Assembly (NCBI GenBank): GCA_023247255.1 | Contig: JAHFGV010000005.1 | Coordinates: 6,067 to 70,066, forward strand | Direction of reading: 5' to 3' | Source: Candidatus Omnitrophota bacterium | Lineage (GTDB): Bacteria; Omnitrophota; Gorgyraeia; Aquiviventales; Aquiviventaceae | DNA: 64,000 nt | Shown here: positions 25,849-53,172 of the stretch, piece by piece | Layout of the letters: the number at the start of each line of letters is the position of its first letter | Numbering within the stretch: position 1 is the stretch's first letter | Position numbers and translations under genes: made by a program | Notes under the pieces: model-generated | Seen by the model: only the letters and a program-made list of their open reading frames with translations | What the model was told of the DNA's origin: nothing | Databases searched by the model: none

Positions 25849-26925
25849 GTGAACCTCCTCGTTGTGGGACTCAGTCATCGCACCGCGCCGCTCGAATTGC
25901 GCGAGCTGCTGGCGATCCCGTCACGCGAGTTGCCCGACACACTCGGCGATCTTCATACCCAGTTCGGGATCGATGAAGCGGTGATCCTGTCGACCTGCAA
26001 TCGGGTTGAGATCTACGTCATCACACCAGACCCCTCCGCAACCTCCTACGGCCTCATCGACTTCTTGAGTCATCGAAGCCACGTGGCCCCCGAGGCGTTC
26101 CAATCCCGGATGTATTGCCTAACGGGACCTGACGCGGTGAGACAGCTCTTTGGCGTCACTGCAGGGCTGGATTCGATGGTCCTTGGGGAGTCAGAAATCA
26201 CGGCCCAAGTGAAACAAGCCTATCGGGTGGCACAAACCGAAGAGACAACCGGGCTTGTGCTCCATCGCCTCTTCCAGAAAGCCTTGCACACGGCAAAGGT
26301 CATTCGATCCAAGACACGCTTAGGCTTTGGCCAAGCCTCCATCGGATCAATCGTTGTCGCGCTTGCCAGGAAACTCTTCGAAGGGCAACTTCAAAATTGC
26401 GAAGTCTTGCTTTGGGGAGCCGGAAAGGCGGCGGAATCGACTGCACGGTATCTCATCAAGAACGGGGTGGGCCAGTTGTGGATTGTCAACCGCACACCGC
26501 TCAAAGCGCGGGATCTTGCGACGCTTTGCCAAAGCGGCTGGCTCTCGTGGGAGCAGGCGTTGAAGCACCTCGCCCACGTCGATATTGCCATCGTCTGCAC
26601 CCAAGCGCCGCACTACGTCATCGATCAAGGCGACCTCGATGCGGTTGCGGCTCAGCGCGGCAGCCGCCCCCTGTGTCTCGTTGACCTGGCGGTGCCTCGC
26701 AACGTCGAGCCGTCCCTCGCGCGGCATCCCGGTGTGCGCCTCTACAACATCGATGATCTCCAAACCATTACGCAGGCTGCACAATCGCAGCGTGAACAGG
26801 AACGCGAACGCTCTGACGCGCTCATTCAGGAGCAGGTCAACCATTTCTCTCGTTGGTGGATGGCAGTTTCCCACAAGAAGGAGGATGTTCCATGCCGATC
26901 CGTCGAGGCCTTCTCGTCGGTGTGA
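25849..26925 (+). CDS. hemA: glutamyl-tRNA reductase (short C-terminus)
   Basis: GTG start. Motifs VVGLSHRTAPLELRE, STCNRVEIY, GESEI and GAGKAAE are present. At 358 aa it is shorter than the ~420 aa I recall as typical. Confidence 0.85.
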   Translation: MNLLVVGLSHRTAPLELRELLAIPSRELPDTLGDLHTQFGIDEAVILSTCNRVEIYVITPDPSATSYGLIDFLSHRSHVAPEAFQSRMYCLTGPDAVRQLFGVTAGLDSMVLGESEITAQVKQAYRVAQTEETTGLVLHRLFQKALHTAKVIRSKTRLGFGQASIGSIVVALARKLFEGQLQNCEVLLWGAGKAAESTARYLIKNGVGQLWIVNRTPLKARDLATLCQSGWLSWEQALKHLAHVDIAIVCTQAPHYVIDQGDLDAVAAQRGSRPLCLVDLAVPRNVEPSLARHPGVRLYNIDDLQTITQAAQSQREQERERSDALIQEQVNHFSRWWMAVSHKKEDVPCRSVEAFSSV

Positions 26926-28118
26926 GTCTCGTCGCGGCGCTTACGCTCGGAGAATCAGCGTGGGCAACGATCGAGAACCTCAAAAGCTACAAGGCAGCCT
27001 ATCCCGATAAAGATCCCAAGGCCTATTCGTGCAAGGCCTGCCACGAGGGCCTCATCGGGAAGAAAGACAACCTCAACGCCTATGGTCTCACCTTGCAGAA
27101 GTTCAAAGTGGATGCCGGGGCGAAGAAATTGACCGAAGAAGATTTTCGGGCGTTCGAGGCTGCGGATGCTGATGGGGATGGCGCCTCCAATCTTGATGAG
27201 CTGGACGCGGGCACTGATCTGAATGATCCCACGTCCGTGCCGGAGGGCGCTGGGCAAACGCCAGAAAAAAAAGAAGAAAGCCCAGGCACTGAGCAGCAGA
27301 CAAGCCCTCCAGGCGGCGCGTCGCAACTGAATCCAGGGACACTGAAACAGTTGCAGGCCTACCTGGAGGAGCAGATCGTCCCAGACGTTCAAGCGGCGCC
27401 AGAGGAATCGTCAGTGTCTAGGCGGCATGACGACAAAACAGCGTCCAACGCCAAATCCTCCCAACCCGAACAGGCTGAGTACGTGGGGATGGAGACCTGC
27501 GCGATGTGTCATAACAAGCAGCACCAGGAATTTCTCCACTCAACCCATGCCAGGATCGCAATCCCCGGAGAGACCAAGGCGCAAGGTTGTGAGACCTGTC
27601 ATGGGCCCGGCAGTCTGCACGTTGCTGCCGGTGGCGGTCGTGGCGTCGGTGGGATTATCAATCCGAAGAAGGATCCCGGCGCCTGTTTTGCCTGTCACCT
27701 CGACAAGAAAGCGGAATTTCGTTTGCCCCATCACCATCCCGTGATGGAAGGCAAGATGAGTTGTGCGGATTGCCACAATCCCCACGGTGAGGATGTGCGG
27801 CCGTGGTCAGCGACGACGCTGAAGGATATCAATGAGGCCTGCTTTCGGTGCCACAAGGAACAGCGCGGCCCATTCGCCTGGGAACACGAGGCGCTGCGGG
27901 AAGGTTGCACGACCTGTCACAAGGTTCATGGCTCGATTCACGAGAAGATGCTGCTCGTCCGGGACAACAACTTGTGCCTGCGCTGCCATACGCAGACGAA
28001 CTTCCCGACCATTGGCAGGTCCAGCCATGCTGGCCGGCTTCCCCAAGGGACGTGCTTTAGCGCGGGATGCCATACGGCGGTTCACGGATCGAACTTCGAC
28101 GATCACCTCCGCTACTAA
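26892..28118 (+). CDS. periplasmic multihaem cytochrome c (MtrA/DmsE-like body)
   Basis: ATG 26892 follows AAGGAGG, then a signal peptide. 8 CXXCH motifs plus CFSAGCH (CX4CH). C-terminal motif CHTAVHGSN. TSP3-like motif DADGDGASNLDELDAGTDLNDP. Confidence 0.8.
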   Translation: MPIRRGLLVGVSLVAALTLGESAWATIENLKSYKAAYPDKDPKAYSCKACHEGLIGKKDNLNAYGLTLQKFKVDAGAKKLTEEDFRAFEAADADGDGASNLDELDAGTDLNDPTSVPEGAGQTPEKKEESPGTEQQTSPPGGASQLNPGTLKQLQAYLEEQIVPDVQAAPEESSVSRRHDDKTASNAKSSQPEQAEYVGMETCAMCHNKQHQEFLHSTHARIAIPGETKAQGCETCHGPGSLHVAAGGGRGVGGIINPKKDPGACFACHLDKKAEFRLPHHHPVMEGKMSCADCHNPHGEDVRPWSATTLKDINEACFRCHKEQRGPFAWEHEALREGCTTCHKVHGSIHEKMLLVRDNNLCLRCHTQTNFPTIGRSSHAGRLPQGTCFSAGCHTAVHGSNFDDHLRY

Positions 28119-28130
28119 AGGAGACGCCTC

Positions 28131-30191
28131 ATGCGCGCGATGCTTTGTTGGACGTTGGGAGGAATTCTGGGTGTGAGTCTATGGTTACCCTCACGCCTTG
28201 CTGAGGCTGCGGACCCGGAGGTTTCCCTTTCCCTGGAGCCCATCCGTTATGCGTTCGTCAATGGCGACCGGGATAAGTTTAGCGCCCATCATTGGATGAA
28301 AGACAACTACGTCGGAGGCGTGAAGGAGTTTTCCTTCGACTACGCCCTTGCGGATGGAACGCAGCTCTCCGCAGAAAGCCACGCGCTCATTGATCAAAAC
28401 GATTTGGGCGCTGACGTCTCACTTAAGAAAGACTCACTGGGCTTTTTCAATCTCGGCTACTCCGAATTCCGCAAGTATTACGATAAAACCGGTGGTGTGT
28501 ACTATCCGTTTACCACCCTTCGCAGCAACGATACGTTTAAGGACCTTGCTCTGGACATCGGTCACCTCAGCCTTGAAAGCGGGTTGACCCTGGAAGGCTG
28601 GCCTGACCTGACCTTCGAGTACGAGCGCGAATTCAAGGATGGGGCGAAATCGCGCCTGAGCTGGGTCCCAACGAAGGAAGGGACCACCACCCGGAATATC
28701 GGTCCCTCGTGGCAAGATCTTGATGAGGTCGTCGACTCATTTGGCCTCAAAGCCGATCATGAGATCGCAGGATTCACTCTCAAGGGCGAGCAGCGATGGG
28801 AGTTCGTGCGGACCGAAACCTTTCGGGAGGAGAAATTTCTCGCGACAACAGGTGTCGCAGCAGACACCAAGATTCGACGGCAGGACCAAGCCCCGCAAGC
28901 CACCTTGATGACGACGACGTTAGGCGGGGAGCGTTCGTTCTTCGCTGACAAGATATTTACATCGATGGGCTACCATTTCGCCCACATGGATAATCGGGAA
29001 TTCGAGACAATCGTCGAGTCGAACGCGGCTGGAACCGTAACAAACTTTTCGAATCCGAAGCAGATCCGTAATGCGCGCGCCGATAACGACTACGATACCC
29101 ATACCTGGGTAGGGAACTTCATGATCAACCCCTGGAACTGGCTGAGCCTCGGGACCAAACTCAAGGCTGAAGCGATTCACCGGGAGAGCGACTCAAGCTA
29201 TCCGGCGGATGCCTCGCCGAACTCCACGGGCGGCAGCACCCCGAATGGGGCGATCGACTCTCTCGTGGCCAGTCTCAACAAGAACAAGGCCGTTCGCTGG
29301 GGGGAAGGAGTGTCCCTGCGGTTTTTTGGCATCCCACGCACCGCTCTCTACACTGATTTGGAGTTGGAGCAATCGCGAGTAATCTTGGCAGAGGATCGGA
29401 AAGATTTAGTGACGATCCCGAATGTCAACGAGGATTTCAGCCGCTACACTGTCACCAACGTCCGACGAGGGACGTGGACATTGGGCGGCCATGTCGCGCC
29501 GGGGTCGTTCCTCGATCTGACGACGCAGGTCCGGCGACGTGTCAACAACAACGACTACGATGACCAACGGGAAACCGTCGCCTCAGGGACGGCGCTGTCC
29601 GCATTCGTCGATATGCAGAACATCCATACGGATGAGTTCACCACGCGGGCCACGCTGCGGCCCTCTCGGTGGTTTCGCCCCTCGTTCCGGTACCAGTTCC
29701 GTAACGATAAATATGCGACTCGGACGGAAGCGCAGGATACCGTAAAGACGGGTATGCTCTCGAACATCTACACTTTTGACGTAACGGCACAACCGTTGCG
29801 AGACCTCACGACCACCGCCTCCTTCTCGCGTCAGACGGCCGTCACCACCACTCCCGCGGGTTCGGCGTCGTCAGCAAACGTTCCTGGGTTTCGCGCAAAT
29901 GTCAACACGTGGCTTTTCAGCACCGACTACAGCCCAAGGGCGAATGTGAGTATCACCAACGCGCTGCTCTATTCGCGCGCAAGAAACTTCAACGATTTTA
30001 CCGCCAGCGGGATGCCGTTCGGGACCTCGTTTGATCGGCTGGATGTGACCACAGGTCTGAAGTGGGCGCTGACCGAGGATACGTCTGTTGGCACCGAATA
30101 CGCATTCTACTCGTATCTGCCCAATTCGCTGACCGAAGTGGGCGACTACCATGCCCACGTCATCTGGCTCGAGTTGTCGAAGCAGTTTTGA
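28131..30191 (+). CDS. outer-membrane beta-barrel protein (MtrB/PioB-like porin candidate)
   Basis: 686 aa with a signal peptide (..SRLAEA/AD) and alternating aromatic/Gly-rich strands. The C-terminal ..WLELSKQF ends in Phe. Begins 13 nt after the cytochrome gene. Confidence 0.6.
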   Translation: MRAMLCWTLGGILGVSLWLPSRLAEAADPEVSLSLEPIRYAFVNGDRDKFSAHHWMKDNYVGGVKEFSFDYALADGTQLSAESHALIDQNDLGADVSLKKDSLGFFNLGYSEFRKYYDKTGGVYYPFTTLRSNDTFKDLALDIGHLSLESGLTLEGWPDLTFEYEREFKDGAKSRLSWVPTKEGTTTRNIGPSWQDLDEVVDSFGLKADHEIAGFTLKGEQRWEFVRTETFREEKFLATTGVAADTKIRRQDQAPQATLMTTTLGGERSFFADKIFTSMGYHFAHMDNREFETIVESNAAGTVTNFSNPKQIRNARADNDYDTHTWVGNFMINPWNWLSLGTKLKAEAIHRESDSSYPADASPNSTGGSTPNGAIDSLVASLNKNKAVRWGEGVSLRFFGIPRTALYTDLELEQSRVILAEDRKDLVTIPNVNEDFSRYTVTNVRRGTWTLGGHVAPGSFLDLTTQVRRRVNNNDYDDQRETVASGTALSAFVDMQNIHTDEFTTRATLRPSRWFRPSFRYQFRNDKYATRTEAQDTVKTGMLSNIYTFDVTAQPLRDLTTTASFSRQTAVTTTPAGSASSANVPGFRANVNTWLFSTDYSPRANVSITNALLYSRARNFNDFTASGMPFGTSFDRLDVTTGLKWALTEDTSVGTEYAFYSYLPNSLTEVGDYHAHVIWLELSKQF

Positions 30192-30634
30192 TGTGTCCTC
30201 GTCAGCCCCTCAGTCGCCGGGTTTTCCTGGCGCTTTGCCTCAGGGGTGGTGGGCTTGCCCTGCTTGGGGCTGCGCTCTATCCCATCCTGCGGTATCTCTA
30301 TCCTCCCCGAGGCGTTGAATCCTCCGTCTCCAGCGTTGCGGCGGCGAAGGTGGGGGATCTGGCGACGAATACCGCGAAGATCTTCCGGTTCGGCAGTCGG
30401 CCCGGCCTCCTCATTCGTTCCCCCCAAGGCGAGCTCAAAGCCTTCTCGGCGGTGTGCACCCACCTCAACTGCACCGTTCAGTACGACAGCGACGCGAGCA
30501 TCATCTGGTGCGCCTGCCACAACGGCAAGTATGACTTAAACGGACAGGTCATCTCCGGCCCTCCCCCACGACCACTCGATGCCTACCAGGTGAACGTCCG
30601 CGGAGAAGACATCATCGTCTCCAAGACGTCCTAG
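30191..30634 (+). CDS. Rieske [2Fe-2S] protein
   Basis: ATG 30191 overlaps the porin stop (TGATG). RR-containing N-terminus plus a TM helix. Cluster motifs CTHLNC and CACHNG. Confidence 0.85.
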   Translation: MCPRQPLSRRVFLALCLRGGGLALLGAALYPILRYLYPPRGVESSVSSVAAAKVGDLATNTAKIFRFGSRPGLLIRSPQGELKAFSAVCTHLNCTVQYDSDASIIWCACHNGKYDLNGQVISGPPPRPLDAYQVNVRGEDIIVSKTS

Positions 30635-30638
30635 CCTG

Positions 30639-31709
30639 ATGGGGTACTTCGAGCACCTACGCGCATTCTTGCATGAGCGCTACCGGCTGGGTGGCCTAGT
30701 GGATCTCGCCACGCATAAGACGGTCCCCATCCACCGCCACAGCGTCTGGTACTACTGGGGCGGCATGACGCTCGTGCTCATCGGCATCCAGATCATCAGC
30801 GGTGTGCTGCTGTTGCTGTACTACCGCCCATCAGCCCAGGAAGCCTTCGAGTCGGTTCGCTTCCTCATGACGCGGGTGCAATTCGGGTGGCTGGTGCGCT
30901 CCGTGCACGCGTGGGCGGCGAACCTGGCGATCTTCTGCGCGATGGTGCATCTGGCCAGCGTCTTTTTCCTGAAGGCGTATCGGCCACCCCGTGAACTGAC
31001 CTGGGTGACCGGGGTTGTGTTGTTGTTTCTGCTATTTGGTTTCGGATTTACCGGCTACCTCCTGCCGTGGAATACGCTGGCGTTTTTCGCCACCAAGGTC
31101 GGCACGGAAATCGCGGGGATTGTGCCCGTCGTCGGGCCTGTCGTTCAAATCTTTCTGCGCGGTGGAAGCGACGTTGGGGATGTGACGATCACGCGGTTCT
31201 TTTGGCTTCATGTCGCAATCCTGCCAATCGGCCTGATGACACTCTTAAGCCTTCATCTGCTCATGATCCAGCTCCAGGGCATGAGCAAACCGCCTTGGGT
31301 TAAGAGCAATCGGTCCATGCCGTTCTTTCCGAATTTTTTCCTGCGCGATCTGGTTGCCTGGTCACTCATACTGGGGATAGTGCTGTGTGTGAGCGTGCAC
31401 TGGCCCGCGACGCTCGGCGAAAAGGCCGATCCGTTCGCTCCGACACCCGTGGGCATCCAACCGGAATGGTATTTTCTCTGGATGTTTCAGACGCTCAAGA
31501 TTTTCCCTGGCCACCTGTTTGGTCTCGAGGGTGAGTTAGTCGCGGTGGGATTGACCGGACTGGCGGGTCTTGCGCTGCTACTCGTTCCATGGCTGGATCG
31601 CCCCGCCCGACGGGAGCAATCATCCTGGCTGGTATGGGCTGTTGGCGTGTTGGGCATTGCCTATGTCGTCGGGATGACCGGCTACGCGCTATGGGTGAAA
31701 CCTCACTGA
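30639..31709 (+). CDS. cytochrome b (b6 plus subunit-IV-like, fused)
   Basis: 356 aa with WYYWGGMTL, VRSVHAWAANL and GYLLPWN, plus the paired His context. Confidence 0.9.
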   Translation: MGYFEHLRAFLHERYRLGGLVDLATHKTVPIHRHSVWYYWGGMTLVLIGIQIISGVLLLLYYRPSAQEAFESVRFLMTRVQFGWLVRSVHAWAANLAIFCAMVHLASVFFLKAYRPPRELTWVTGVVLLFLLFGFGFTGYLLPWNTLAFFATKVGTEIAGIVPVVGPVVQIFLRGGSDVGDVTITRFFWLHVAILPIGLMTLLSLHLLMIQLQGMSKPPWVKSNRSMPFFPNFFLRDLVAWSLILGIVLCVSVHWPATLGEKADPFAPTPVGIQPEWYFLWMFQTLKIFPGHLFGLEGELVAVGLTGLAGLALLLVPWLDRPARREQSSWLVWAVGVLGIAYVVGMTGYALWVKPH

Positions 31710-32995
31710 TGACAGGGTATCGTCTACGGGTGGCACTCGGACTTCTGCTGTGCCCTGGCTTTGTGTGGTCGGCTGAGAAGCCGAATAGTTGTGTCGAGTG
31801 CCACAAGCAGGTGGAGGGCCAAACGCGAGGGCCGGCCACACTGGCTGCAGAGGACGTGCATTTCCAGCGAGGCTTGTCCTGCGTGGATTGCCATGGCGGC
31901 GATCCAACAGCGATGGATCCTCAAGCCGCGATGGACCCGGCTAAAGGGTTCCTCGGTCGCCCGAGGCGGGAGCAGATTCCCCAGTTTTGCGCCCGGTGCC
32001 ACGCGGATCCGGCCACCATGCGCAAGTACAATCCCAATCTTCCGACTGACCAATACGCGAAGTACCTGACCAGTCAGCACGGGAAGCGCTTCAGTGTTGG
32101 CGATGCCGATGTGCCGGTCTGCATCAGTTGCCACGAGGCGCACGGCATCCGCTCGAAAAAAGACCCAGCCTCGCCGGTCTACCCGACGAACATCCCCGGA
32201 ACCTGCGCGAGCTGCCACAGCGACGCGTCGATCATGGACAAACACGGCTTGCCGGTGAACCAGCACTGGGACTACTCGCAGAGCGTCCACGGCCAGGCGC
32301 TGTTGTTCCGTGGCGATCGTGCGGCTCCCCATTGCGCGAGCTGCCACGGATCGCACGAAGCGGCCAAACCTAGGACGGTCGCAATCGGCAACGTCTGCGC
32401 TCAGTGCCATAGCCTCACGCGCGATCTGTTTGCAAAGAGTCCCCACAAGGCCGCGCATGAAGCCTTAGGGCTTCCGGAGTGCGAGGTCTGCCACGGCAAT
32501 CACCTGATCCGCAAGCCAAGCGACGAGATGCTTGGGACGGGACAAGATGCGGTGTGTGTCAGTTGTCACGAGCCAGGGTCGACCGGCTACGTCACCGCGC
32601 AGCAGATGCGCAGCGCCATCGAGCAACTGAAAACCCACATGGCCAGCGCTGAGGCAGCCGTCAGGCACGCAGCGGAGTTGGGCATGGATGTCGGTGACGC
32701 GGAATTTGAGCTTCGCGAGGCGATGACCCAACTCACGCAAGAGCGCACCTACGTCCACTCTTTCTCCGCCGCAACCATGGAACCCATTGCCGAGGAGGGA
32801 ACTCACCACGCCCTGCGGGCCGAGGGGCAAGCCCGCCAGGCGATCCGTGAGTTTCATTTCCGCCGTCAGGGCTTGTGGGTCACCCTGATCATTCTCGCCC
32901 TCGTGGTTTCTGGACTCCTTCTGAAGATTCGAGACTTGGAGCGATCGGACTCGACAGACAAGATGGACGACACATCCCCTCGCGACTCCTCGTAA
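31709..32995 (+). CDS. nonahaem cytochrome c with C-terminal membrane anchor
   Basis: ATG 31709 overlaps the cyt b stop (TGATG). Signal peptide, 9 CXXCH motifs, a helical region and a C-terminal TM (LWVTLIILALVVSGLLL). Confidence 0.8.
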   Translation: MTGYRLRVALGLLLCPGFVWSAEKPNSCVECHKQVEGQTRGPATLAAEDVHFQRGLSCVDCHGGDPTAMDPQAAMDPAKGFLGRPRREQIPQFCARCHADPATMRKYNPNLPTDQYAKYLTSQHGKRFSVGDADVPVCISCHEAHGIRSKKDPASPVYPTNIPGTCASCHSDASIMDKHGLPVNQHWDYSQSVHGQALLFRGDRAAPHCASCHGSHEAAKPRTVAIGNVCAQCHSLTRDLFAKSPHKAAHEALGLPECEVCHGNHLIRKPSDEMLGTGQDAVCVSCHEPGSTGYVTAQQMRSAIEQLKTHMASAEAAVRHAAELGMDVGDAEFELREAMTQLTQERTYVHSFSAATMEPIAEEGTHHALRAEGQARQAIREFHFRRQGLWVTLIILALVVSGLLLKIRDLERSDSTDKMDDTSPRDSS

Positions 32996-33032
32996 AATCT
33001 GCCATTTCCGGCTATGATATCTGCGGAGCATC

Positions 33033-39820: not shown

Positions 39821-39834
39821 ATGACGTTCGTCAT
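39821..39834. promoter_or_regulatory. Crp/Fnr-type dyad site 3
   Basis: CC-ATGAC-GTTC-GTCAT-GGAAGA. Confidence 0.5.
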
Positions 39835-43308: not shown

Positions 43309-43322
43309 ATGACTCCCGTCAT
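43309..43322. promoter_or_regulatory. Crp/Fnr-type dyad site 4
   Basis: CC-ATGAC-TCCC-GTCAT-GGAAGA. Flanks are identical to site 3. Confidence 0.5.
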
Positions 43323-43760: not shown

Positions 43761-43766
43761 GCGAAG

Positions 43767-45365: not shown

Positions 45366-45367
45366 CC

Positions 45368-48300
45368 ATGTATCTGACGCGTCGTCAGTTTTTAAAACTC
45401 TCAGGAGCTACTGGAATCGGGTTGTATCTCGCCTCACGCGAGGTCTCGCTCTGGGCGCTGGAGCCGGTGAGCGAGATAGAGAATCCGCTCGCCTACTATC
45501 CTTCGCGAGACTGGGAGAAGCTCTACCGCGACCAGTACCGGTATGACAGCACCTTCTCCTGGGTCTGCTCGCCCAACGACACGCACGCCTGCCGGGTCCT
45601 GGCGTACGTGAGAAACGGCGTCGTGGTGCGTCTTGGCTCAGAGTACAACTATGAAACCTACGCCGACCTGTACGGAAACAAGGCCACTCCCAACTGGAAC
45701 CCGCGCCAGTGCGCCAAAGGTTTCACCTTTCATCGGCTCATCTACGGTCCTTACCGCTTGAAACATCCCATCATCCGTAACGGTTGGAAGCGCTGGGCCG
45801 ACGACGGATTCCCAACGCTGACCCCTGAGAAAAAGACACAATACAAGTTTGACTCGCGCGGCACAGACACTTTTGAAAAAATCAGTTGGGAGGATATCTA
45901 CGGCTACATTGCCCGCGGCCTCATCGCTATCGCTACGCGCTACAGCGGCGAGCCGGGCATAACACTCCTGCGCGCACAGGGCTATCCCGAGGAAATGATC
46001 CAAGCGATGGGTGGGGCCGGGACACGGACCTTGAAGTTCCGCGGCGGGATGGGCCTGCTTGGGGTGTTTGGCAAGTACGGCATGTACCGACTGGCGAACA
46101 CGATGGCGCTTCTCGATGTCCACCTGCGCGGTGTCAAGCCTGAGGAGGCGAAGGCCGGACGGACGTGGTCCAACTACACGTGGCACGGCGATCAGGCGCC
46201 GGGGCATCCCTGGGTGCATGGATTGCAGAACGCCGACTGCGATTTCAACGACCTTCGTTTTTCCAAGCTGATCATCCAGGACGGCAAGAACCTCTGCGAG
46301 AACAAGATGACCGACTCGCACTGGTTCATTGAATGTATGGAGCGTGGGGCAAAGCTGGTGACGATCGCGCCCGAATACAGCCCGCCGGCGTCGAAGTCGG
46401 ACTATTGGATTCCGATTCGCCCGCAGACCGATGCCGCGCTCTTCTTGGGTATCACGCGCCTCATGATCGACCGAGGCTGGTACGACCGGGAGTTTATCCT
46501 GAACTTCACCGACTTTCCGCTCTTGGTGCGAACCGACACCCTGCGGCGCCTTCGAGCGAATGAGATCCTGCCGGGCTACCAAGGGCAGTTGTCCAAGGAC
46601 GGCCCAAGCTACAAGCTCCAGGGATTGAAGGACGAGCAGTATGCCAAGTTGGGGGACTTCGTCGTCTGGGATGAATCCTCCGGAGCGCCCGCCGCAATCA
46701 CACGCGACGACGTCGGCAAGCGTCTCGTACAGAAAGGCGTCCACCCCGCGCTTGAAGGGACGTTTACACTCAACACGGTGGATGGGAAGCGTATTGAGGT
46801 GATGACGCTCTTTTCGCTCTATCAACTCCACCTCAAGGACTACGACCTTGATACCGTGCATGAGATCACTCGCGCGCCGAGAGAGCAGATCGAACAACTC
46901 GCGAAGGACATCGCCACTATCTCGCCAGTCGCGATCCACCAAGGCGAGGGCATCAACCACTACTTCCACGCCACCGAGGCCAATCGCGCCGCCTATCTGC
47001 CGCTGATGCTGACCGGCAACATCGGCCAACGCGGTGCTGGCTGCTACGGATGGGCCGGCAACTACAAGGCTGCGCTTTTCCAAGGCTCTCCATGGACCGG
47101 TCCGGGATTCAAAGGCTGGGTGGCCGAGGATCCGTTTGAGCCTAACCTTGACCCCAACGCGCACGGGAAAGACATCCACGCGCACGCCTACTTCAAGGAC
47201 GAAGAGCCGGCTTATTGGAACCACGGGGATAAGCCGCTGATCGTCGAGACGCCCAAGGGCGGCCGCAAGGTCTTCACCGGCAACACTCACATGCCCACAC
47301 CCACAAAGGCGATGCTTTTCACCAACGTGAACCTCATCAACAATGCCAAGTGGGTCTATGAGATGCTCAAGAACGTCAACCCGAATGTCGAGATGATCCT
47401 TTCTATCGACATCCAAATGACCGCTTCGATCGAATACGCGGACTTAGCACTGCCGGCGAATAGCTGGCTTGAGTTCGAGGGGCTGGAGGTTACGGCGTCA
47501 TGCTCCAACCCTTTCCTCCAGATCTGGAAGGGCGGGATTCCGCCTGTGTTCGACAGCCGGGATGATCTGGTGATTCTCGCCCAGATCGCCGAAGCGCTCG
47601 GCAAGGAAATCGGCGATACGCGCTGCAGCGACTACTGGAAGTTTGCGCTCGAGGGCAAGCGCGAAGTCTACATCCAGCGGCTGCTGGATTCCTGCACGAC
47701 GACGGTTGGCTATCGTCTGGAGGACATCATGGCGGGCAAGTACGGGCCGCCGGGGGCGGCACTCATGCTCTTTCGCACCTATCCCCGGATCCCCTTCTGG
47801 GAGCAGGTGCACGAGGACTTACCTTTCTACACCGACCACGGGAGGCTTTCGGCCTACACCGATGTGCCCGAGGCGATCGAGTACGGCGAGAATTTCATCG
47901 TCCACCGTGAAGGTGCGGAGGCGACACCCTACCTGCCGAACGTCATCGTCAGCAGCAACCCGTACATCCGCCCCAACGATTACGGTATTCCCTTATCGGC
48001 GGAGCACTGGGATGACCGCACGGTGCGCAACGTGAAGATGCCGTGGGATCAGGTCAAAGGCACAAAGAATTTCCTCTGGGAAAAGGGCTTTCAGTTTTAC
48101 TGTCTAACTCCCAAGAGCCGCCATCGCGTCCACTCGCTTTGGAGCAACGTGGACTGGCACCAAATCTGGGACTCCAACTTCGGCGATCCCTACCGGATGG
48201 ACAAACGCAGCCCTGGTGTTGGCGAACACCAGGTTCACATGAATCCCCAGGCGGCAAAGGATTTAGGGATCAATGACGGCGATTACGCCTATGTCGATGC

Positions 48301-48820
48301 GAATCCAGCAGATCGTCCCTACATTGGGGCGAAACCTGACGATCCGTTCTATCGGGTGGCGCGGCTGATGCTGCGTGTCAAGTACAACGCAGCCTACCCG
48401 TACAACGTCGTCATGATGAAGCACGGGACCTATATTGCCACCGAGAAATCTGTGAAGGCCCACGAGACGCGCAAGGATGGACGGGCCCTCTCCGCTGACA
48501 CCGGCTACCAGGCGAACTTCCGCTACGGGTCGCAGCAGAGTGTCACGCGCAACTGGCACATGCCGATGCACCAGACCGACTCACTCTTCCACAAGGCGAA
48601 GGTCTTCATGGGCTTTCTCTTCGGCGGCGAGGCGGACAATCACGCGGTCAACACGGTTCCGAAAGAGACGCTGGTGCGCGTGACGAAAGCGGAAGACGGC
48701 GGGTTGGGTGGCCAGGGCGTGTGGGCTCCGGCGACGACCGGCTATACCCCGGCCAACGAGAACGACACGATGAAGAAGTACCTCGAAGGCCGGTTCGTTG
48801 AGGAGAGCAAGAAATGGTAA
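45368..48820 (+). CDS. nxrA: periplasmic NxrA/NarG-type molybdopterin (bis-MGD) oxidoreductase alpha subunit
   Basis: ATG 45368, 1150 aa. TAT signal MYLTRRQFLKLSG. The N-terminal FeS region WVCSPNDTHACRV...RQCAKG resembles Nitrospira/anammox NxrA as I recall it. Confidence 0.85.
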   Translation: MYLTRRQFLKLSGATGIGLYLASREVSLWALEPVSEIENPLAYYPSRDWEKLYRDQYRYDSTFSWVCSPNDTHACRVLAYVRNGVVVRLGSEYNYETYADLYGNKATPNWNPRQCAKGFTFHRLIYGPYRLKHPIIRNGWKRWADDGFPTLTPEKKTQYKFDSRGTDTFEKISWEDIYGYIARGLIAIATRYSGEPGITLLRAQGYPEEMIQAMGGAGTRTLKFRGGMGLLGVFGKYGMYRLANTMALLDVHLRGVKPEEAKAGRTWSNYTWHGDQAPGHPWVHGLQNADCDFNDLRFSKLIIQDGKNLCENKMTDSHWFIECMERGAKLVTIAPEYSPPASKSDYWIPIRPQTDAALFLGITRLMIDRGWYDREFILNFTDFPLLVRTDTLRRLRANEILPGYQGQLSKDGPSYKLQGLKDEQYAKLGDFVVWDESSGAPAAITRDDVGKRLVQKGVHPALEGTFTLNTVDGKRIEVMTLFSLYQLHLKDYDLDTVHEITRAPREQIEQLAKDIATISPVAIHQGEGINHYFHATEANRAAYLPLMLTGNIGQRGAGCYGWAGNYKAALFQGSPWTGPGFKGWVAEDPFEPNLDPNAHGKDIHAHAYFKDEEPAYWNHGDKPLIVETPKGGRKVFTGNTHMPTPTKAMLFTNVNLINNAKWVYEMLKNVNPNVEMILSIDIQMTASIEYADLALPANSWLEFEGLEVTASCSNPFLQIWKGGIPPVFDSRDDLVILAQIAEALGKEIGDTRCSDYWKFALEGKREVYIQRLLDSCTTTVGYRLEDIMAGKYGPPGAALMLFRTYPRIPFWEQVHEDLPFYTDHGRLSAYTDVPEAIEYGENFIVHREGAEATPYLPNVIVSSNPYIRPNDYGIPLSAEHWDDRTVRNVKMPWDQVKGTKNFLWEKGFQFYCLTPKSRHRVHSLWSNVDWHQIWDSNFGDPYRMDKRSPGVGEHQVHMNPQAAKDLGINDGDYAYVDANPADRPYIGAKPDDPFYRVARLMLRVKYNAAYPYNVVMMKHGTYIATEKSVKAHETRKDGRALSADTGYQANFRYGSQQSVTRNWHMPMHQTDSLFHKAKVFMGFLFGGEADNHAVNTVPKETLVRVTKAEDGGLGGQGVWAPATTGYTPANENDTMKKYLEGRFVEESKKW

Positions 48821-49521: not shown

Positions 49522-49541
49522 CGAGATGAGGCGTGTGAGCG

Positions 49542-49818
49542 ATGCCGTATAAGGAACCCGAACCGGATGATCCTTTGGAGCTGACGGGAGTCGTCCTACC
49601 TGCTTCGGACGAGACGTCACTGAAGGAAATGGCCGTGTGTTTCGTCGAAGAGTTCCTGCGCGACGGCTGGTCGGATGAGCAGCTTCGTGCGATGTTCCGC
49701 AATCCCTACTACCGAGGTCCCTACCTCGTGTGGCGGCAGAAGGGCGATGCATACGTGGAGGCTGTGATCCAGGAAGTCCGTCACATCTGGCGCCCCAACG
49801 CAGCCGGAGGAGCGACTC

Positions 49819-49826
<8 letters not shown>
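49542..49826 (+). CDS. hypothetical 94-aa protein
   Basis: Acidic N-terminus and W/Y-rich core, with no signal peptide. The stop overlaps the nxrB start by 8 nt, suggesting co-translation. Confidence 0.35.
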
Positions 49827-51057
<1,231 letters not shown>

Positions 51058-51087
51058 ATTTTGCTGCGCAACATTTATTAACCGGAT

Positions 51088-51867
51088 ATGAATCCTACGA
51101 TAAATCTTCCTTCGGAAAATTTAATTGAGGACCTGCTGGCGAGAAGCGCCGTCTATCATGCGCTGTCGCTGCTGCTGCGCCATCCAGACGCGGCCGCCAT
51201 GAAGTGGCTGTCGATGCGGGAATATCAGCGGCTGGCTGAGGTCGTGGAGATGCTGACGAAGGAACGAAAGGGATCATTGCACGAGGCTGTGCGGTATATG
51301 ATGACGGCGTTCGAGGGGGTGTCGATTGCGGAGTGGACCCGCGACTATGAACGGATCTTCGGACACTCGGTCCAGAGCGCGGCGCCACCCTATGAACTGG
51401 AGTACGGCGAGGAGCACAGCCATCGGCAGCCGCAGGAGCTGGGCGATATCGCGGCATTCTATCGAGCGTTCGGCCTTCGCGTGGCCTTTGCCTCGCATGA
51501 GCGGATCGATCATATCGTCACGGAGTGCGACTTCATGCAGTACCTGCTCTATAAGCAAGCCTGTGCACTTGATGAGGGGAGCGAGGAGCGGGCGGATGTG
51601 TGCGAAACGGCAGCCCAGCAGTTCCTCGCTGATCACCTCGGTCGCTGGGGTCCGGCCTTTGCCCTAAGACTCTCGCGAGCGGCTGAGCAGAGAGTCTTGG
51701 GAGCGCTTGCCGATACGACCCTGGCATGGCTGGTGCAGGATTGCGAGCGTATGCAGGTGCCTACCGGATCACGCGACCTCCCGCTGCGACTGCCCAAGGA
51801 ACGGGATGAGGTGGGATGCGCAGCGTGCGCACCTCAGCAGCTAGGAAATACTGATGGCAAGCGTTGA
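51088..51867 (+). CDS. TorD/NarJ-family redox enzyme maturation chaperone
   Basis: 259 aa with the pattern YHALSLLL...EYERIFG...PPYELEYG...DHI..ECDFMQYL. Confidence 0.7.
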   Translation: MNPTINLPSENLIEDLLARSAVYHALSLLLRHPDAAAMKWLSMREYQRLAEVVEMLTKERKGSLHEAVRYMMTAFEGVSIAEWTRDYERIFGHSVQSAAPPYELEYGEEHSHRQPQELGDIAAFYRAFGLRVAFASHERIDHIVTECDFMQYLLYKQACALDEGSEERADVCETAAQQFLADHLGRWGPAFALRLSRAAEQRVLGALADTTLAWLVQDCERMQVPTGSRDLPLRLPKERDEVGCAACAPQQLGNTDGKR

Positions 51868-52801
51868 TGTCCAGTTTGATCCAGCATTTGTGGAAGAGAC
51901 GGTTTTCCTTGAATTGAGGAACCGGGAAGCCCTCGGCAATTGCGCGATGGCGCAGGCGTTTCATGTACAGCGCAGCGCCCTCTATGACACCACGACCGCA
52001 ACAGGCGAGCGCGAGGCGCGATTTCAGCAGCTGGCAGCCCGCTATTTCCAGGAGCTTGGATTCTCCGAGCTCTTTGCGAAACGGTTCGAAGAGTTTCCGC
52101 TGATCGGAGCGCATGTTCCTGTTGCGCTGGTGCGACGCGCCTGGAGCCGCAAGGAAGAGCGCGTTGAGTTATACGTTCCCCCTACGCCCGGTGGGGGCTC
52201 AAGCCTCAAAGCTTTTCCGACGCTGTGGATCGGTTTTCAGGTCGCCCGGTGCTTAAATCGCGAGCAGCTCGTGGCGTTCCTGCGGCATGAGCTCATGCAC
52301 ATCTCTGATATGTTTGACCCGGCGTTCGGGTACCAACCGCATCCAGACTTCGGCGCGGAGTGTGAAACAGAAGAGGACCTAATCCGTAAGCGCTTCCGAT
52401 TGCTGTGGAACCTCGTTGTGGATGGGCGGATGCGCCGGAAGGGCTGGCCGGCCGTTGACCATGGAACGACACGTCTTCGGGAGTTTGAGCGGGCGTTTGC
52501 CTCCTGGGACCCGCAGCGCCGCGAGGCGGTGTGGCCGGATCTTGGCAACCGAGCATCCTGCACGCAACGTGAGCTCCTGGAACTGGCGAAGGACGAACGT
52601 CTCACCCGGATGCTGGGGCAAGGCGGCGTTCGCTGCCCCTTGTGCCATTTTCCGACGCGGGAGGGCGTGTGCGATTGGCGTGGCGAACGCGCGGCTGTTG
52701 CTGAAGCGATCCAAACGGATTACGCCTGGTGGGATCCGGTTCAGGGAGCATGCCGGCAGTGCTTCGAGTTGTATCGCGCAAGGCTACCGGTGATGGGATG
52801 A
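51854..52801 (+). CDS. hypothetical HExxH-motif protein with C-terminal Cys4 zinc ribbon
   Basis: 315 aa with LRHELMHISD (HExxH) and CPLCH..C..CRQC near the C-terminus. Overlaps both neighbouring genes. Confidence 0.45.
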   Translation: MASVDVQFDPAFVEETVFLELRNREALGNCAMAQAFHVQRSALYDTTTATGEREARFQQLAARYFQELGFSELFAKRFEEFPLIGAHVPVALVRRAWSRKEERVELYVPPTPGGGSSLKAFPTLWIGFQVARCLNREQLVAFLRHELMHISDMFDPAFGYQPHPDFGAECETEEDLIRKRFRLLWNLVVDGRMRRKGWPAVDHGTTRLREFERAFASWDPQRREAVWPDLGNRASCTQRELLELAKDERLTRMLGQGGVRCPLCHFPTREGVCDWRGERAAVAEAIQTDYAWWDPVQGACRQCFELYRARLPVMG

Positions 52802-53172
52802 CGCGCGAAGACGCAAATGCGACGAACGGCGAAATCAATCGGCGCACGTTTCTCGCCTCGGCGCCTCGGCACCTGCTGGACGGGCTGAGAGCGCTGATGA
52901 GCGATCTCAGAGGGCTCTCGCCGCCTGTCTTGGATGACCAGGCATGGCCGCTTCCTCGAAAGGTGGCGATGCTGGATGTCTCGCGGTGTCTCGCGTGGGG
53001 AGGAGGGGGCTGTCAGGTGTGTTATCTCCGGTGTCCCCTGCGTGAGCGTGCGATGGTGTTTGAGGATGGCAAACCAACGGTGGTGGCTTCCATGTGCGAC
53101 GGCTGTGGTGTCTGTGTCGAGGCGTGCGAAGCCGTCAATGACCTTGGAGCGATGACGCGTGTGAGTGTATGA
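52798..53172 (+). CDS. TAT-signal 4Fe-4S ferredoxin-like protein
   Basis: ATG 52798 overlaps the upstream stop. NRRTFLAS, then the Cys clusters CLAWGGGGCQVCYLRCP and CDGCGVCVEAC. Confidence 0.6.
   Translation: MTREDANATNGEINRRTFLASAPRHLLDGLRALMSDLRGLSPPVLDDQAWPLPRKVAMLDVSRCLAWGGGGCQVCYLRCPLRERAMVFEDGKPTVVASMCDGCGVCVEACEAVNDLGAMTRVSV

What the first reader, a model, noticed from the sequence alone, without database searches (positions are those of the whole stretch)
26892..53172. Conduit, bc complex, FeoB and NXR-like enzyme co-localised: possible metal-oxidation / N-oxyanion respiratory island
A 26-kb co-directional stretch brings together five elements: an outer-membrane electron conduit; three quinone-interacting cytochrome modules; cytochrome maturation; ferrous-iron uptake with a metalloregulator; and a periplasmic NXR/NAR-type enzyme whose gamma candidate carries extra c-haems. 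These are linked by copies of the same Crp/Fnr-type dyad, and the Moco pathway follows. One reading is a pathway coupling extracellular or periplasmic metal (Fe(II)/Mn(II)) or mineral redox chemistry to nitrate/nitrite conversion. The bc module would then split electrons between energy conservation and reverse flow toward the nuo module. This is a hypothesis drawn from gene content only.
Basis: inference. Interest (0 to 1): 0.6.

Follow-up and report, generated by a model that had tools for sequence, protein, structure and literature searches.

The report
Omnitrophota respiratory gene neighbourhood: conduit, bc, NXR
An uncultured Omnitrophota bacterium keeps genes for an outer-membrane electron conduit, three quinol-linked cytochrome modules, iron uptake and a periplasmic nitrite/nitrate oxidoreductase side by side under one shared regulatory DNA motif; the parts are all known kinds, and no evidence here shows that metal oxidation is coupled to nitrate or nitrite conversion.

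Summary
Window 24.2-60.6 kb carries, on one strand:
- a Crp/Fnr-family regulator, a hemerythrin and hemA;
- an MtrA-like multihaem cytochrome and an MtrB-like beta-barrel;
- Rieske/cytochrome b with an anchored 9-haem cytochrome;
- ImcH-like and CbcL-like quinol modules;
- ResB/CcsA, then FeoB and a DtxR-FeoA protein;
- an NXR cassette whose alpha subunit keeps the Kuenenia NXR-A active-site residues, and whose gamma subunit is fused to a dihaem cytochrome c;
- a Moco riboswitch and the Moco biosynthesis genes.

A dyad, ATGAC-N4-GTCAT, is enriched (7 hits against 1.8 expected). It precedes four of these transcription units, and relatives keep it at the same positions.

The source is a Candidatus Omnitrophota genome. 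The NXR cassette occurs alone in more than ten phyla, and the conduit/bc/ccs operon occurs without NXR in several relatives, so the modules are separable. Even so, bc/ImcH or conduit genes lie within about 26 kb of NXR in four Omnitrophota lineages.

The best reading is a co-regulated, branched anaerobic respiratory chain that shares periplasmic c-type cytochromes. The direction of electron flow (metal oxidation or reduction, nitrite oxidation or nitrate reduction) is undetermined. Feo is most simply assimilatory, and the nuo genes are not part of the cluster.

The parts
24225..24875 (+). Crp/Fnr-family regulator (cNMP-binding domain plus HTH_Crp_2). It lacks the FNR N-terminal Cys cluster.
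   Evidence: Pfam; sequence; NCBIfam FixK/FtrB/FnrL/CRP hits, all far below cutoffs; gene call in L082
24883..24896 (.). Dyad copy with 1 mismatch (CTGACGGACGTCAT), just downstream of the regulator gene
25044..25057 (.). Exact dyad ATGACGTACGTCAT, centred about 57 nt upstream of the hemerythrin start; the likely control site of the hemerythrin-to-ccsA unit
   Evidence: (family D4)
25108..25761 (+). Hemerythrin-domain protein
   Evidence: Pfam; gene call; conserved next to the Crp gene in L085 and L100
25849..26925 (+). hemA (glutamyl-tRNA reductase). It overlaps the MtrA-like gene and is conserved upstream of the conduit in relatives.
   Evidence: Pfam; contexts
26892..28118 (+). MtrA/DmsE-family periplasmic multihaem cytochrome (8 CXXCH plus 1 CX4CH)
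   Evidence: 6R2Q_A, E=4e-32
28131..30191 (+). MtrB-like large outer-membrane beta-barrel (686 aa, signal peptide, C-terminal Phe)
   Evidence: pLDDT 88; top hit MtrB 6R2Q_B, TM 0.62/0.65
30191..30634 (+). Rieske 2Fe-2S subunit; its start overlaps the porin stop codon
30639..31709 (+). Cytochrome b (fused b6 and subunit IV type, about 8 TM helices); resembles Geobacter ExtP/ExtQ
   Evidence: ExtP 210 bits, below the 290 cutoff
31709..32995 (+). 9-haem cytochrome c with a C-terminal TM anchor; the likely c subunit of the Rieske/cyt b complex. The junction of the two ENA contigs lies inside it, at about 32383-32524.
   Evidence: contig ranges; collinear homologues
33033..34550 (+). ImcH-like NapC/NrfH-superfamily cytochrome (3 N-terminal TM helices, CX3CH plus 6 CXXCH)
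   Evidence: family features from PMC6295460
34628..36183 (+). CbcL/MtoC/MtrH-like protein: 7-haem domain fused to a HydC/FdnI-type cytochrome b. In the window it is frameshifted at about 35903 (1-nt deletion relative to the ENA assembly, where it encodes 518 aa).
36270..39709 (+). ResB and CcsA (system II cytochrome c maturation)
39821..39834 (.). Exact dyad ATGACGTTCGTCAT upstream of feoB
   Evidence: the same position is occupied in L103/L122
40196..43254 (+). FeoB (40196-42250) and a DtxR/MntR-family regulator fused to FeoA (42547-43254)
43309..43322 (.). Exact dyad ATGACTCCCGTCAT at the head of the hth-tatA-nxr unit
   Evidence: conserved upstream of hth/nxrC in L005, L121 and L103/L122, and with 1 mismatch in L004
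43309..43760 (+). Small XRE-type HTH protein (the true start is probably internal, about 43363) and TatA (43587-43760)
43767..45365 (+). NxrC of the 'alternative' type: N-terminal dihaem cytochrome c fused to an EB_dh haem-b domain. It has a signal peptide with a possible lipobox and no TM anchor.
   Evidence: (6H5L_B 170 bits; 7B04_C 108 bits)
45368..48820 (+). NxrA (1150 aa), with a Tat signal. Cys67, Asn70, Asp71, Cys75 and Asp275 sit at the same positions as in Kuenenia NXR-A.
   Evidence: residue roles from PMC8387239
48814..49521 (+). DUF2490 outer-membrane beta-barrel family protein inserted between nxrA and the small conserved ORF
   Evidence: same position in L119 (85% identity); 64% homologue between ccsA and nxrC in L105
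49542..49826 (+). Conserved 94-aa protein of unknown function between nxrA and nxrB
   Evidence: present in 74 of 80 loci; no family hit
49819..51057 (+). NxrB (Fe-S subunit)
   Evidence: 7B04_A 625 bits
51088..53172 (+). NarJ/TorD-like chaperone (51088-51867), conserved 315-aa protein of unknown function (51854-52801), and a small Fer4 protein with an RR motif and weak NapG similarity (52798-53172)
53169..53182 (.). Dyad copy with 1 mismatch, centred about 52 nt upstream of the Moco riboswitch
   Evidence: the equivalent site is present in L004 and L121
53228..53385 (+). Moco (molybdenum cofactor) riboswitch aptamer
   Evidence: RF01055, 61.6 bits against gathering score 36
53451..60644 (+). 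Moco biosynthesis and Tat genes: small ORF, moaA, moaC, mog-like, methyltransferase, TauE, moeA, mobB, moaE, tatC

Best explanation
This is a co-regulated anaerobic-respiration gene neighbourhood of an uncultured Candidatus Omnitrophota bacterium. It is assembled from separable, individually known modules.

Transcription units (inferred from gene spacing and site positions):
- hemerythrin-hemA-MtrA-like-MtrB-like-Rieske-cyt b-9-haem c-ImcH-like-CbcL-like-ResB-CcsA
- feoB and dtxR/feoA
- hth-tatA-nxrC-nxrA-DUF2490-p94-nxrB-narJ-p315-fer4
- Moco riboswitch followed by the Moco genes

Each unit is preceded by the dyad ATGAC-N4-GTCAT. This is most likely the site of the adjacent Crp/Fnr-family regulator (inferred).

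Proposed mechanism (inferred): three inner-membrane quinol:cytochrome c modules feed a periplasmic pool of c-type haems. These are Rieske/cyt b with its anchored 9-haem subunit, the ImcH-like protein and the CbcL-like protein. From the pool electrons branch two ways. One branch goes through the dihaem domain of NxrC to the soluble periplasmic NXR, most likely reducing nitrate to nitrite. The other goes through the MtrAB-like porin-cytochrome conduit to extracellular acceptors such as Fe(III), Mn(IV), humics or a partner cell. In this scheme energy would be conserved at the quinol-oxidising step.

hemA, Ccs, Feo, Tat and Moco supply cofactors for this haem-, Fe-S- and Mo-rich machinery.

All of these enzymes are reversible in principle, so inward electron flow is not excluded. 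It is not indicated either.
For: Identities of the parts.

Operon-like packing: the porin and Rieske genes overlap, hemA overlaps the MtrA-like gene, and the gaps are at most 87 nt.

Dyad:
- It is enriched, and 6 of 7 copies lie between genes or at gene boundaries.
- It is conserved at the same positions in relatives.
- The copy before the Moco riboswitch is centred about 52 nt upstream of the aptamer's first modelled base. This fits an activator site about 41 nt upstream of a transcription start just before the aptamer (my reading of coordinates).

NXR and membrane coupling: NxrC has no membrane anchor and carries two c-haem domains, so it must exchange electrons with cytochromes. This is the alt-NxrC idea of PMC3578206.

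bc/ImcH next to NXR:
- In L120 Rieske/cyt b-MHC-ImcH is immediately upstream of nxr.
- In L083+L105 it lies in the same order as in the window.

Hints toward reductive use:
- The ImcH plus CbcL pair is the Geobacter outward electron-transfer signature (PMC6295460).
- A NIR_SIR-type nitrite/sulfite reductase sits between dtxR and nxr in L122.
- Purified Kuenenia NXR reduces nitrate about 25 times faster than it oxidises nitrite, measured with artificial partners (PMC8387239).
- Omnitrophota are described as having patchwork respiratory systems with nitrate, nitrite and metal reductases (PMC10066038).

Precedent for a porin, multihaem cytochromes and Rieske/cyt b in one cluster: Geobacter extHIJKLMNOPQS (PMC5877670).
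Against: - No expression, physiology or biochemistry exists for this organism.
- The direction of electron flow is inferred from weak contextual hints.
- The MtrAB-like pair lacks an MtrC-type surface cytochrome, as do the Fe(II)-oxidising MtoAB and PioAB systems.
- The assignment of the dyad to the neighbouring regulator is untested.
- The CbcL-like gene is frameshifted in this assembly.
- The promoter and terminator scan could not define the operon structure.
Confidence: 0.55

Rival explanations
1. One reading: a dedicated pathway in which extracellular or periplasmic Fe(II) or Mn(II) is oxidised at the MtrAB-like conduit. Electrons then pass through periplasmic cytochromes to the NXR-type enzyme, which reduces nitrate. 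The Rieske/cyt b complex splits the flow between energy conservation and reverse transport to complex I.
For: - The conduit lacks an MtrC-type surface cytochrome, like MtoAB and PioAB.
- CbcL/MtoC homologues occur in Fe(II) oxidisers (PMC6295460).
- NxrC has c-haem entry points.
- Conduit or bc genes lie near NXR in four Omnitrophota lineages.
- The units share a regulatory dyad.
Against: - The modules are found apart in most relatives.
- ImcH homologues are so far known only from metal reducers.
- Periplasmic nitrate reduction fed directly by periplasmic cytochromes conserves no energy unless the electrons pass through the quinone pool (established bioenergetics).
- The nuo genes are distant and sit in a separate context.
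- FeoB is an uptake system and not a respiratory component.
- Mn(II) oxidation with nitrate is thermodynamically marginal.
Confidence: 0.18
2. NXR works in the oxidative direction, turning nitrite into nitrate. The electrons leave through NxrC either to the conduit and a high-potential extracellular acceptor such as Mn(IV) oxide, or to a terminal oxidase encoded elsewhere. The bc complex would run in reverse for biosynthetic reducing power, as in Nitrospira, Nitrospina and anammox bacteria.
For: - NxrA is full-length similar to the Kuenenia nitrite oxidoreductase (1848 bits over residues 1-1145) and keeps its active-site and FS0 residues.
- The alt-NxrC type with c-haems was proposed for electron export in Nitrospina.
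- Periplasmic nitrite oxidation releases protons on the outer side of the membrane.
Against: - The same cassette is spread over at least 590 genome loci in many anaerobic, non-nitrifying lineages.
- No oxidase is present in the window.
- A Crp/Fnr-type regulon and a neighbouring NIR_SIR gene in a relative fit nitrate and nitrite reduction better.
- No nitrite-oxidising Omnitrophota have been reported in the papers read.
Confidence: 0.1
3. The juxtaposition has no functional meaning. It would be either chance adjacency of independently acquired operons or an assembly join in a metagenome-assembled genome.
For: - An independent assembly breaks inside the 9-haem gene at about 32.4-32.5 kb.
- A transposase and two tRNAs lie just upstream.
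- The intervening genes differ in every lineage.
Against: - The 9-haem ORF is intact across the junction, and the gene order cyt b-MHC-ImcH-ResB-CcsA is reproduced in L085 and L107.
- The stretch from ccs through feo to nxr lies on a single ENA contig and recurs in L103/L122.
- Proximity of bc or conduit genes to NXR recurs in four lineages with different spacers.
- The dyad is shared and conserved.
Confidence: 0.07

Closest known systems
Periplasmic nitrite oxidoreductase of Kuenenia stuttgartiensis (NXR-ABC, PDB 7B04), with the Nitrospira and Nitrospina NXR group
   Same: - Tat-exported alpha subunit of the same length, with identical Mo-ligand, substrate and FS0 residues (Asp275, Asn70, Cys67/Asp71/Cys75).
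- A beta subunit that is full-length similar.
- An EB_dh haem-b gamma domain.
- A small ORF between nxrA and nxrB.
- A NarJ/TorD-like chaperone.

   Different: - The gene order is C-A-(DUF2490)-p94-B-J.
- The only gamma subunit is the 'alternative' type, fused to a dihaem cytochrome c that resembles a separate Kuenenia cytochrome (6H5L_B).
- No NXR-T, cupredoxin or bd-like oxidase genes are present in the cassette.
- The host is an Omnitrophota bacterium, and the physiological direction of the enzyme is unknown.
MtrAB of Shewanella (PDB 6R2Q), with MtoAB of Sideroxydans and PioAB of Rhodopseudomonas: porin-cytochrome conduits
   Same: - The periplasmic multihaem cytochrome gene lies directly upstream of a large beta-barrel gene of about 690 aa.
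- The cytochrome matches MtrA by sequence.
- The barrel model is closest to MtrB.
- No surface cytochrome is present, as in MtoAB and PioAB.

   Different: - The cytochrome has 8-9 haem motifs instead of 10, plus an extra N-terminal region.
- The barrel does not match the Pfam MtrB_PioB profile.
- The TIGR03508 score is below its cutoff.
- The pair is embedded in one operon with hemA and a Rieske/cyt b complex.
Geobacter sulfurreducens extHIJKLMNOPQS cluster (porin-like ExtI, multihaem cytochromes, Rieske ExtO, cytochrome b ExtP/ExtQ)
   Same: An outer-membrane barrel, multihaem cytochromes and a Rieske/cytochrome b complex lie in one conserved cluster. The window's cytochrome b scores 210 bits against the ExtP model and weakly against ExtQ (PMC5877670).
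   Different: - The barrel here is MtrB-like (686 aa), not the 45-kDa phosphate-porin-like ExtI.
- There is no rhodanese or selenocysteine cytochrome.
- The ExtP score is below the family cutoff (290).
ImcH and CbcL inner-membrane quinol oxidases of Geobacter
   Same: - ImcH-like: 3 TM helices, an atypical CX3CH motif and 6 CXXCH motifs.
- CbcL-like: an N-terminal multihaem domain and a C-terminal HydC/FdnI-type b-cytochrome.
- Both were already noted in Omnitrophica.

   Different: - Here both lie in the same operon as an mtrAB-like pair. The survey PMC6295460 found no mtrAB or mtoAB next to imcH.
- The CbcL-like protein has 7 haem motifs instead of 9, and its gene is frameshifted in this assembly.
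   Same: An outer-membrane electron entry point and a bc complex are encoded in respiratory operons.
   Different: There is no Cyc2, rusticyanin or terminal oxidase here. The components are of the Mtr, ImcH and CbcL types. Reverse flow is not indicated by any feature tested.

Membership tests
Periplasmic NXR (Nitrospira/Nitrospina/anammox type; type II DMSO-reductase family) | Tat signal on the catalytic subunit | tested here: met
   The N-terminus reads MYLTRRQFLKLSGATG. The Pfam and TIGR Tat hits are weak.
Periplasmic NXR (Nitrospira/Nitrospina/anammox type; type II DMSO-reductase family) | Asp ligand to Mo, substrate Asn, and FS0 bound by 3 Cys plus 1 Asp, as in KsNXR-A (Asp275, Asn70, Cys67/Asp71) | tested here: met
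   The same residues occur at the same positions in an ungapped alignment over residues 1-343. Residue roles are taken from PMC8387239.
Periplasmic NXR (Nitrospira/Nitrospina/anammox type; type II DMSO-reductase family) | Fe-S beta subunit and a haem-b EB_dh gamma subunit with Met/Lys haem ligands | tested here: inconclusive
   NxrB scores 625 bits to 7B04_A. The EB_dh domain scores 108 bits to 7B04_C. Candidate ligands Met363 and Lys520 lie near the expected offsets, but the alignment was not checked residue by residue.
Periplasmic NXR (Nitrospira/Nitrospina/anammox type; type II DMSO-reductase family) | Nitrite-oxidising (or nitrate-reducing) activity | not testable with these tools
   This needs enzyme assays or physiology.
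MtrAB/MtoAB/PioAB porin-cytochrome conduit | Periplasmic decahaem cytochrome of the MtrA/DmsE family | tested here: inconclusive
   The protein matches 6R2Q_A at E=4e-32. TIGR03508 gives 161.9 bits, below the 192.2 cutoff. It has 8 CXXCH plus 1 CX4CH motifs, not 10.
MtrAB/MtoAB/PioAB porin-cytochrome conduit | Large (about 26-strand) outer-membrane barrel of the MtrB/PioB family | tested here: inconclusive
   By structure: the AlphaFold2 model has pLDDT 88, is all-beta, and its top PDB hit is MtrB with TM 0.62/0.65. By sequence: there is no Pfam PF11854 hit at E<=0.01, and only 1 of 120 homologues carries a precomputed PF11854 hit.
MtrAB/MtoAB/PioAB porin-cytochrome conduit | Cytochrome and barrel genes adjacent and conserved as a pair | tested here: met
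   The cytochrome gene lies directly upstream of the barrel gene in all 7 distinct contexts examined.
MtrAB/MtoAB/PioAB porin-cytochrome conduit | [quoted passage not shown] | not testable with these tools
   This needs proteoliposome or genetic experiments.
ImcH | Three N-terminal TM helices, an atypical CX3CH motif, and 5-9 CXXCH motifs (PMC6295460) | tested here: met
   Hydropathy segments at 19-38, 47-75 and 101-122; CX3CH at residue 135; 6 CXXCH motifs. Direct homology to GSU3259 was not tested; only NrfH/NapC family hits were obtained.
CbcL/MtoC/MtrH | N-terminal multihaem c domain fused to a HydC/FdnI-like dihaem b membrane domain | tested here: met
   7 CXXCH motifs plus Ni_hydr_CYTB and FdnI-gamma similarity. 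The membrane domain is complete only after the frameshift at about 35903 is corrected.
FNR sensu stricto (O2-sensing [4Fe-4S] regulator) | N-terminal Cys cluster and a TTGAT-N4-ATCAA target | tested here: not met
   The regulator has no N-terminal Cys cluster. The canonical box is not enriched. The enriched dyad is ATGAC-N4-GTCAT. Membership of the wider Crp/Fnr superfamily is met.
Geobacter Ext (ExtO/P/Q) bc-type complex | Scores above the NCBIfam ExtP and ExtQ cutoffs | tested here: not met
   ExtP gives 210 bits against a cutoff of 290. ExtQ gives 19.6 bits against a cutoff of 150.

The most novel reading that the evidence does not exclude
A clade of Omnitrophota wires a soluble periplasmic NXR directly to an Mtr-type outer-membrane conduit and a Rieske/cyt b complex, through the c-haems of NxrC. 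This would allow either enzymatic nitrate-dependent oxidation of extracellular Fe(II) or minerals, or anaerobic nitrite oxidation with Mn(IV) oxides as the acceptor. It would be a genetic blueprint for a metabolism with no established enzymology.
Probability: 0.15. Interest if true: 0.8.

Novelty: new variant of a known kind. Interest (0 to 1): 0.42.

Why it matters
How soluble periplasmic NXR enzymes connect to the membrane respiratory chain is unresolved. Whether nitrate-dependent Fe(II) oxidation has a dedicated enzymatic route is debated. This Omnitrophota clade places an NXR with a c-haem-fused gamma subunit next to a Rieske/cyt b-multihaem complex, ImcH-like and CbcL-like modules and an Mtr-like conduit, all preceded by one conserved operator. 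That arrangement names concrete candidate partners to test. It also gives a respiratory blueprint for a phylum with no isolates. If the modules are simply alternative terminal branches, the locus is an ordinary, if tidy, example of clustered anaerobic respiration genes.

Tried and rejected
- Canonical FNR box. TTGAT-N4-ATCAA is not enriched (26 hits against 20.1 expected). TGAC-N6-GTCA is not enriched either.
- Promoter and terminator scan. Counts were at background level and gave no operon boundaries.
- First synteny pass. Windows of +/-10 kb around NxrA and around the porin suggested that the adjacency was not conserved. This was partly an effect of the flank limit. A ResB-anchored metagenome scan and look-ups of closer NxrA relatives then showed recurrence.
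- Contig-length cross-matching. I compared the 'longest_contig' values between the porin and NxrA hit lists as evidence that one gene was absent from the other's contig. I rejected it as negative evidence. The 368-kb and 600-kb contigs that carry both genes (L105, L106) do not appear in those lists.
- Family searches. Pfam and NCBIfam gave nothing for the 686-aa barrel, the 94-aa protein or the 315-aa protein.
- PDB entry 6H5L. A literature search did not identify its function.
- Composition profile. It shows no clear foreign-DNA boundary around the cluster.

Full report
**What is there**

ORF listing, Pfam/NCBIfam scans and an independent public gene call give a co-directional gene series on the + strand:
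- a Crp/Fnr-family regulator (24225-24875), a hemerythrin (25108-25761) and hemA (25849-26925);
- a 408-aa multihaem cytochrome (26892-28118) and a 686-aa secreted protein with no family hit (28131-30191);
- Rieske (30191-30634), cytochrome b (30639-31709) and a 9-haem cytochrome with a C-terminal anchor (31709-32995);
- a NapC/NrfH-superfamily cytochrome (33033-34550) and a multihaem cytochrome fused to a b-type membrane domain (34628-36183);
- ResB/CcsA (36270-39709), FeoB (40196-42250) and a DtxR/MntR-FeoA fusion (42547-43254);
- a small HTH protein and TatA;
- nxrC-nxrA-DUF2490-p94-nxrB-narJ-p315-fer4 (43767-53172);
- a Moco riboswitch (53228-53385) and the Moco/Tat genes up to 60644.

**The conduit**

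- The cytochrome has 8 CXXCH and 1 CX4CH motifs.
- It matches MtrA of the Shewanella Mtr complex (6R2Q_A, E=4e-32).
- It also matches the DmsE-family model, but below the cutoff.
- The 686-aa protein has a signal peptide and ends in Phe.
- It has about 140 full-length homologues, and those with a named source come from Omnitrophica.
- An AlphaFold2 model built from 41 homologues has pLDDT 88 and is a large all-beta barrel.
- The best PDB match is MtrB (6R2Q_B, TM 0.62/0.65), well above the 22-strand TonB receptors.
- In all seven distinct genomic contexts examined, the cytochrome gene sits directly upstream of the barrel gene.

This is an MtrAB/MtoAB-like porin-cytochrome pair without an MtrC-type surface cytochrome.

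**The quinol modules**

- Rieske and cytochrome b are followed by an anchored 9-haem cytochrome, the likely c subunit of the complex.
- The cytochrome b resembles Geobacter ExtP/ExtQ below cutoff. The Geobacter extHIJKLMNOPQS cluster is a precedent for a porin, multihaem cytochromes and a Rieske/cyt b complex in one cluster (PMC5877670).
- The next protein has three N-terminal TM helices, a CX3CH motif and six CXXCH motifs. This is the architecture given for ImcH (PMC6295460).
- The following protein is CbcL/MtoC-like. In the window it carries a 1-nt deletion at about 35903 relative to an independent assembly of the same population, where it encodes 518 aa.

**NXR**

- NxrA (1150 aa, Tat signal) scores 1848 bits over its full length to Kuenenia NXR-A.
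- It has Cys67, Asn70, Asp71, Cys75 and Asp275 at the same positions. The roles of these residues come from PMC8387239.
- NxrB scores 625 bits to NXR-B.
- NxrC is a fusion. Its dihaem cytochrome c part matches 6H5L_B (170 bits) and its EB_dh haem-b part matches 7B04_C (108 bits).
- NxrC has no membrane anchor.
- Gamma subunits that carry c-haems ('alt_NxrC') were described in Nitrospina (PMC3578206). The extra haems are therefore real but not new.

**Organism and distribution of NXR**

- The nearest NxrA sequences in GTDB genomes are Candidatus Omnitrophota MAGs (79-87% identity).
- The enzyme is found in at least 590 genome loci. These include Planctomycetota, Methylomirabilota, Binatia, Acidobacteriota and Desulfobacterota-type lineages, among others.
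- Across 80 species loci the cassette nxrC-nxrA-p94-nxrB-narJ-p315 is conserved (present in 68, 80, 74, 66, 61 and 55 loci).
- None of these loci has the conduit, ImcH, CbcL, Ccs or FeoB within 10 kb.
- The cassette is thus an autonomous module.

**Distribution of the conduit/bc operon**

The series hemA-MtrA-like-barrel-Rieske-cyt b-MHC-ImcH(-ResB-CcsA) recurs in several Omnitrophota lineages:
- L083/84, L085/L102 and L107;
- L086, with a molybdoenzyme/NrfD complex inserted.

In L085/L102 and L107 no NXR follows within about 8-10 kb.

**Recurrence of the neighbourhood**

My first +/-10 kb comparisons understated the conservation. A ResB-anchored metagenome scan and look-ups of closer NxrA relatives show the following.
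- L083 and L105/L106 are the same organism (99.99-100% identity over 7.5 kb). It carries Crp-hemA-MtrAB-like-bc-MHC-ImcH, then a second cytochrome/NHL cluster, then ResB-CcsA-DUF2490-nxr. NxrA is 91% identical, and the porin start lies 20.9 kb from the nxrA start.
- L120 (NxrA 88%) has Rieske-cyt b-MHC-ImcH-tatA-Rrf2-nxr directly adjacent.
- L103/L115/L122 (NxrA 90%) has ResB-CcsA-FeoB-DtxR-NIR_SIR-hth-tatA-nxr, with no conduit within 10 kb upstream.
- L088/L089 (porin 45%, NxrA 81%) appear to lie on one 161.8-kb contig, in the order nxr-Moco-...-MtrAB-like-ImcH, about 26 kb apart.
- L004, L005, L121, L007, L011, L017, L018 and L019 have NXR with other neighbours.

Proximity of the two systems therefore recurs in four lineages with different spacers. 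This is more than chance adjacency would predict, but three of the four are close relatives. The modules are clearly separable.

**Regulation**

- Repeat analysis found the dyad. ATGAC-N4-GTCAT with at most 1 mismatch occurs 7 times against 1.78 expected, and 0 of 100 shuffles reach 7.
- Six of the seven copies lie between genes or at gene boundaries. They sit after the regulator gene, before the hemerythrin gene, before feoB, at the head of hth-tatA-nxr, before the Moco riboswitch, and between two divergent genes at 62.5 kb.
- Equivalent sites are conserved in relatives before nxr, feoB, the Moco genes, the hemerythrin gene and the regulator gene.
- The copy before the riboswitch is centred about 52 nt upstream of the aptamer's first modelled base, as expected for a class II activator site.
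- The regulator lacks the FNR cysteine cluster, and the canonical FNR box is not enriched.
- In relatives the dyad also precedes PEPCK and GGDEF genes. It therefore marks a broad regulon and not a dedicated pathway.

**Interpretation**

The simplest model is a branched anaerobic respiratory chain. Quinol is oxidised by the bc complex, the ImcH-like protein or the CbcL-like protein. Electrons enter periplasmic c-haems and go either to NXR through the dihaem NxrC, or out through the Mtr-like conduit. hemA, Ccs, Feo, Tat and Moco supply cofactors.

Several hints favour reductive use:
- the ImcH/CbcL pair;
- a NIR_SIR gene next to nxr in L122;
- the in-vitro kinetics of Kuenenia NXR;
- the published view of Omnitrophota as patchwork nitrate, nitrite and metal respirers (PMC10066038).

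None of these is decisive. Its nuo link has no support, because nuoJ-N lie more than 17 kb away beyond the ATP synthase genes, an IS element and two tRNAs.

**Verdict**

The specific metabolism is not shown. All parts belong to known kinds. The arrangement is a new variant worth noting for work on NXR-membrane coupling and on Omnitrophota physiology.

Noticed in passing
window 35880-35925 (about 35903): There is a single-base deletion relative to the ENA contig k141_5670910 from the same population. It splits the CbcL-like gene into 438-aa and 95-aa ORFs, whereas the ENA version encodes 518 aa. About 10 further mismatches occur over 23 kb between the two assemblies.
   Followed up: partly
window 48814-49521; L119 6845-7549; L105 13468-14160: A DUF2490 outer-membrane beta-barrel gene travels with the NXR cassette. 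It lies between nxrA and p94 in the window and in L119 (85% identity), and between ccsA and nxrC in L105 (64%). Alginate_exp-type barrels lie next to NXR in L005, L052, L057, L066 and L089, and a Porin_O_P gene in L121. These may be an outer-membrane route for nitrate or nitrite.
   Followed up: partly
window 49542-49826 and 51854-52801: Two proteins with no family assignment are conserved inside the NXR cassette across phyla. The 94-aa protein between nxrA and nxrB is present in 74 of 80 loci. The 315-aa protein after the chaperone is present in 55 of 80 loci.
   Followed up: partly
window 53228-53385: A Moco riboswitch aptamer (RF01055, 61.6 bits) lies between the NXR cassette and the Moco biosynthesis genes, immediately downstream of a dyad copy.
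   Followed up: yes
window 19140-23842: Two tRNA genes (19140-19213 and 23769-23842) bracket a hydrolase gene, a DDE_Tnp_4 transposase (21135-22136) and an unknown ORF, directly upstream of the regulator gene. This could be an integration hotspot at the edge of the cluster.
   Followed up: no
window 32383-32524: Two contigs of an independent ENA assembly (k141_1346962 and k141_5670910) end and begin here, inside the 9-haem cytochrome gene, with about 141 bp of overlap. The 83-kb public contig that carries both the porin (P0001) and NxrA (P0121) spans this point. Synteny in relatives supports the join.
   Followed up: yes
L105 2148-9922 (= L083 16677-22070 and onward): Between ImcH and ResB this relative carries a second putative extracellular electron-transfer cluster. 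It has two NHL beta-propeller proteins, small c7-type cytochromes, a 672-aa protein with no family hit, and a 584-aa multihaem cytochrome with MtrC/MtrF domain II/IV similarity (62 bits).
   Followed up: partly
L122 6188-7903; L086 1-267: A NIR_SIR-type (sirohaem) nitrite/sulfite reductase gene lies between dtxR and hth-nxr in one relative, and upstream of the conduit operon in another.
   Followed up: no
window 1-9383: nuoJ, nuoL, nuoM and nuoN-type genes follow pyrD, pyrF and a phosphoribosyltransferase gene directly, with no nuoA-I upstream in the window. Three antiporter-like subunits are present (3900-5816, 6341-7792, 7749-9383).
   Followed up: no
window 15061-15823: An unusually long gap of 763 bp separates the ATP synthase gamma gene from the beta gene.
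   Followed up: no
L086 13773-18758; L120 1-1929; L121 2665-7772: Psr/Ttr-like molybdoenzyme, Fer4_11 and NrfD complexes recur next to the bc module or next to NXR in relatives. This is another respiratory module in the same neighbourhoods.
   Followed up: no
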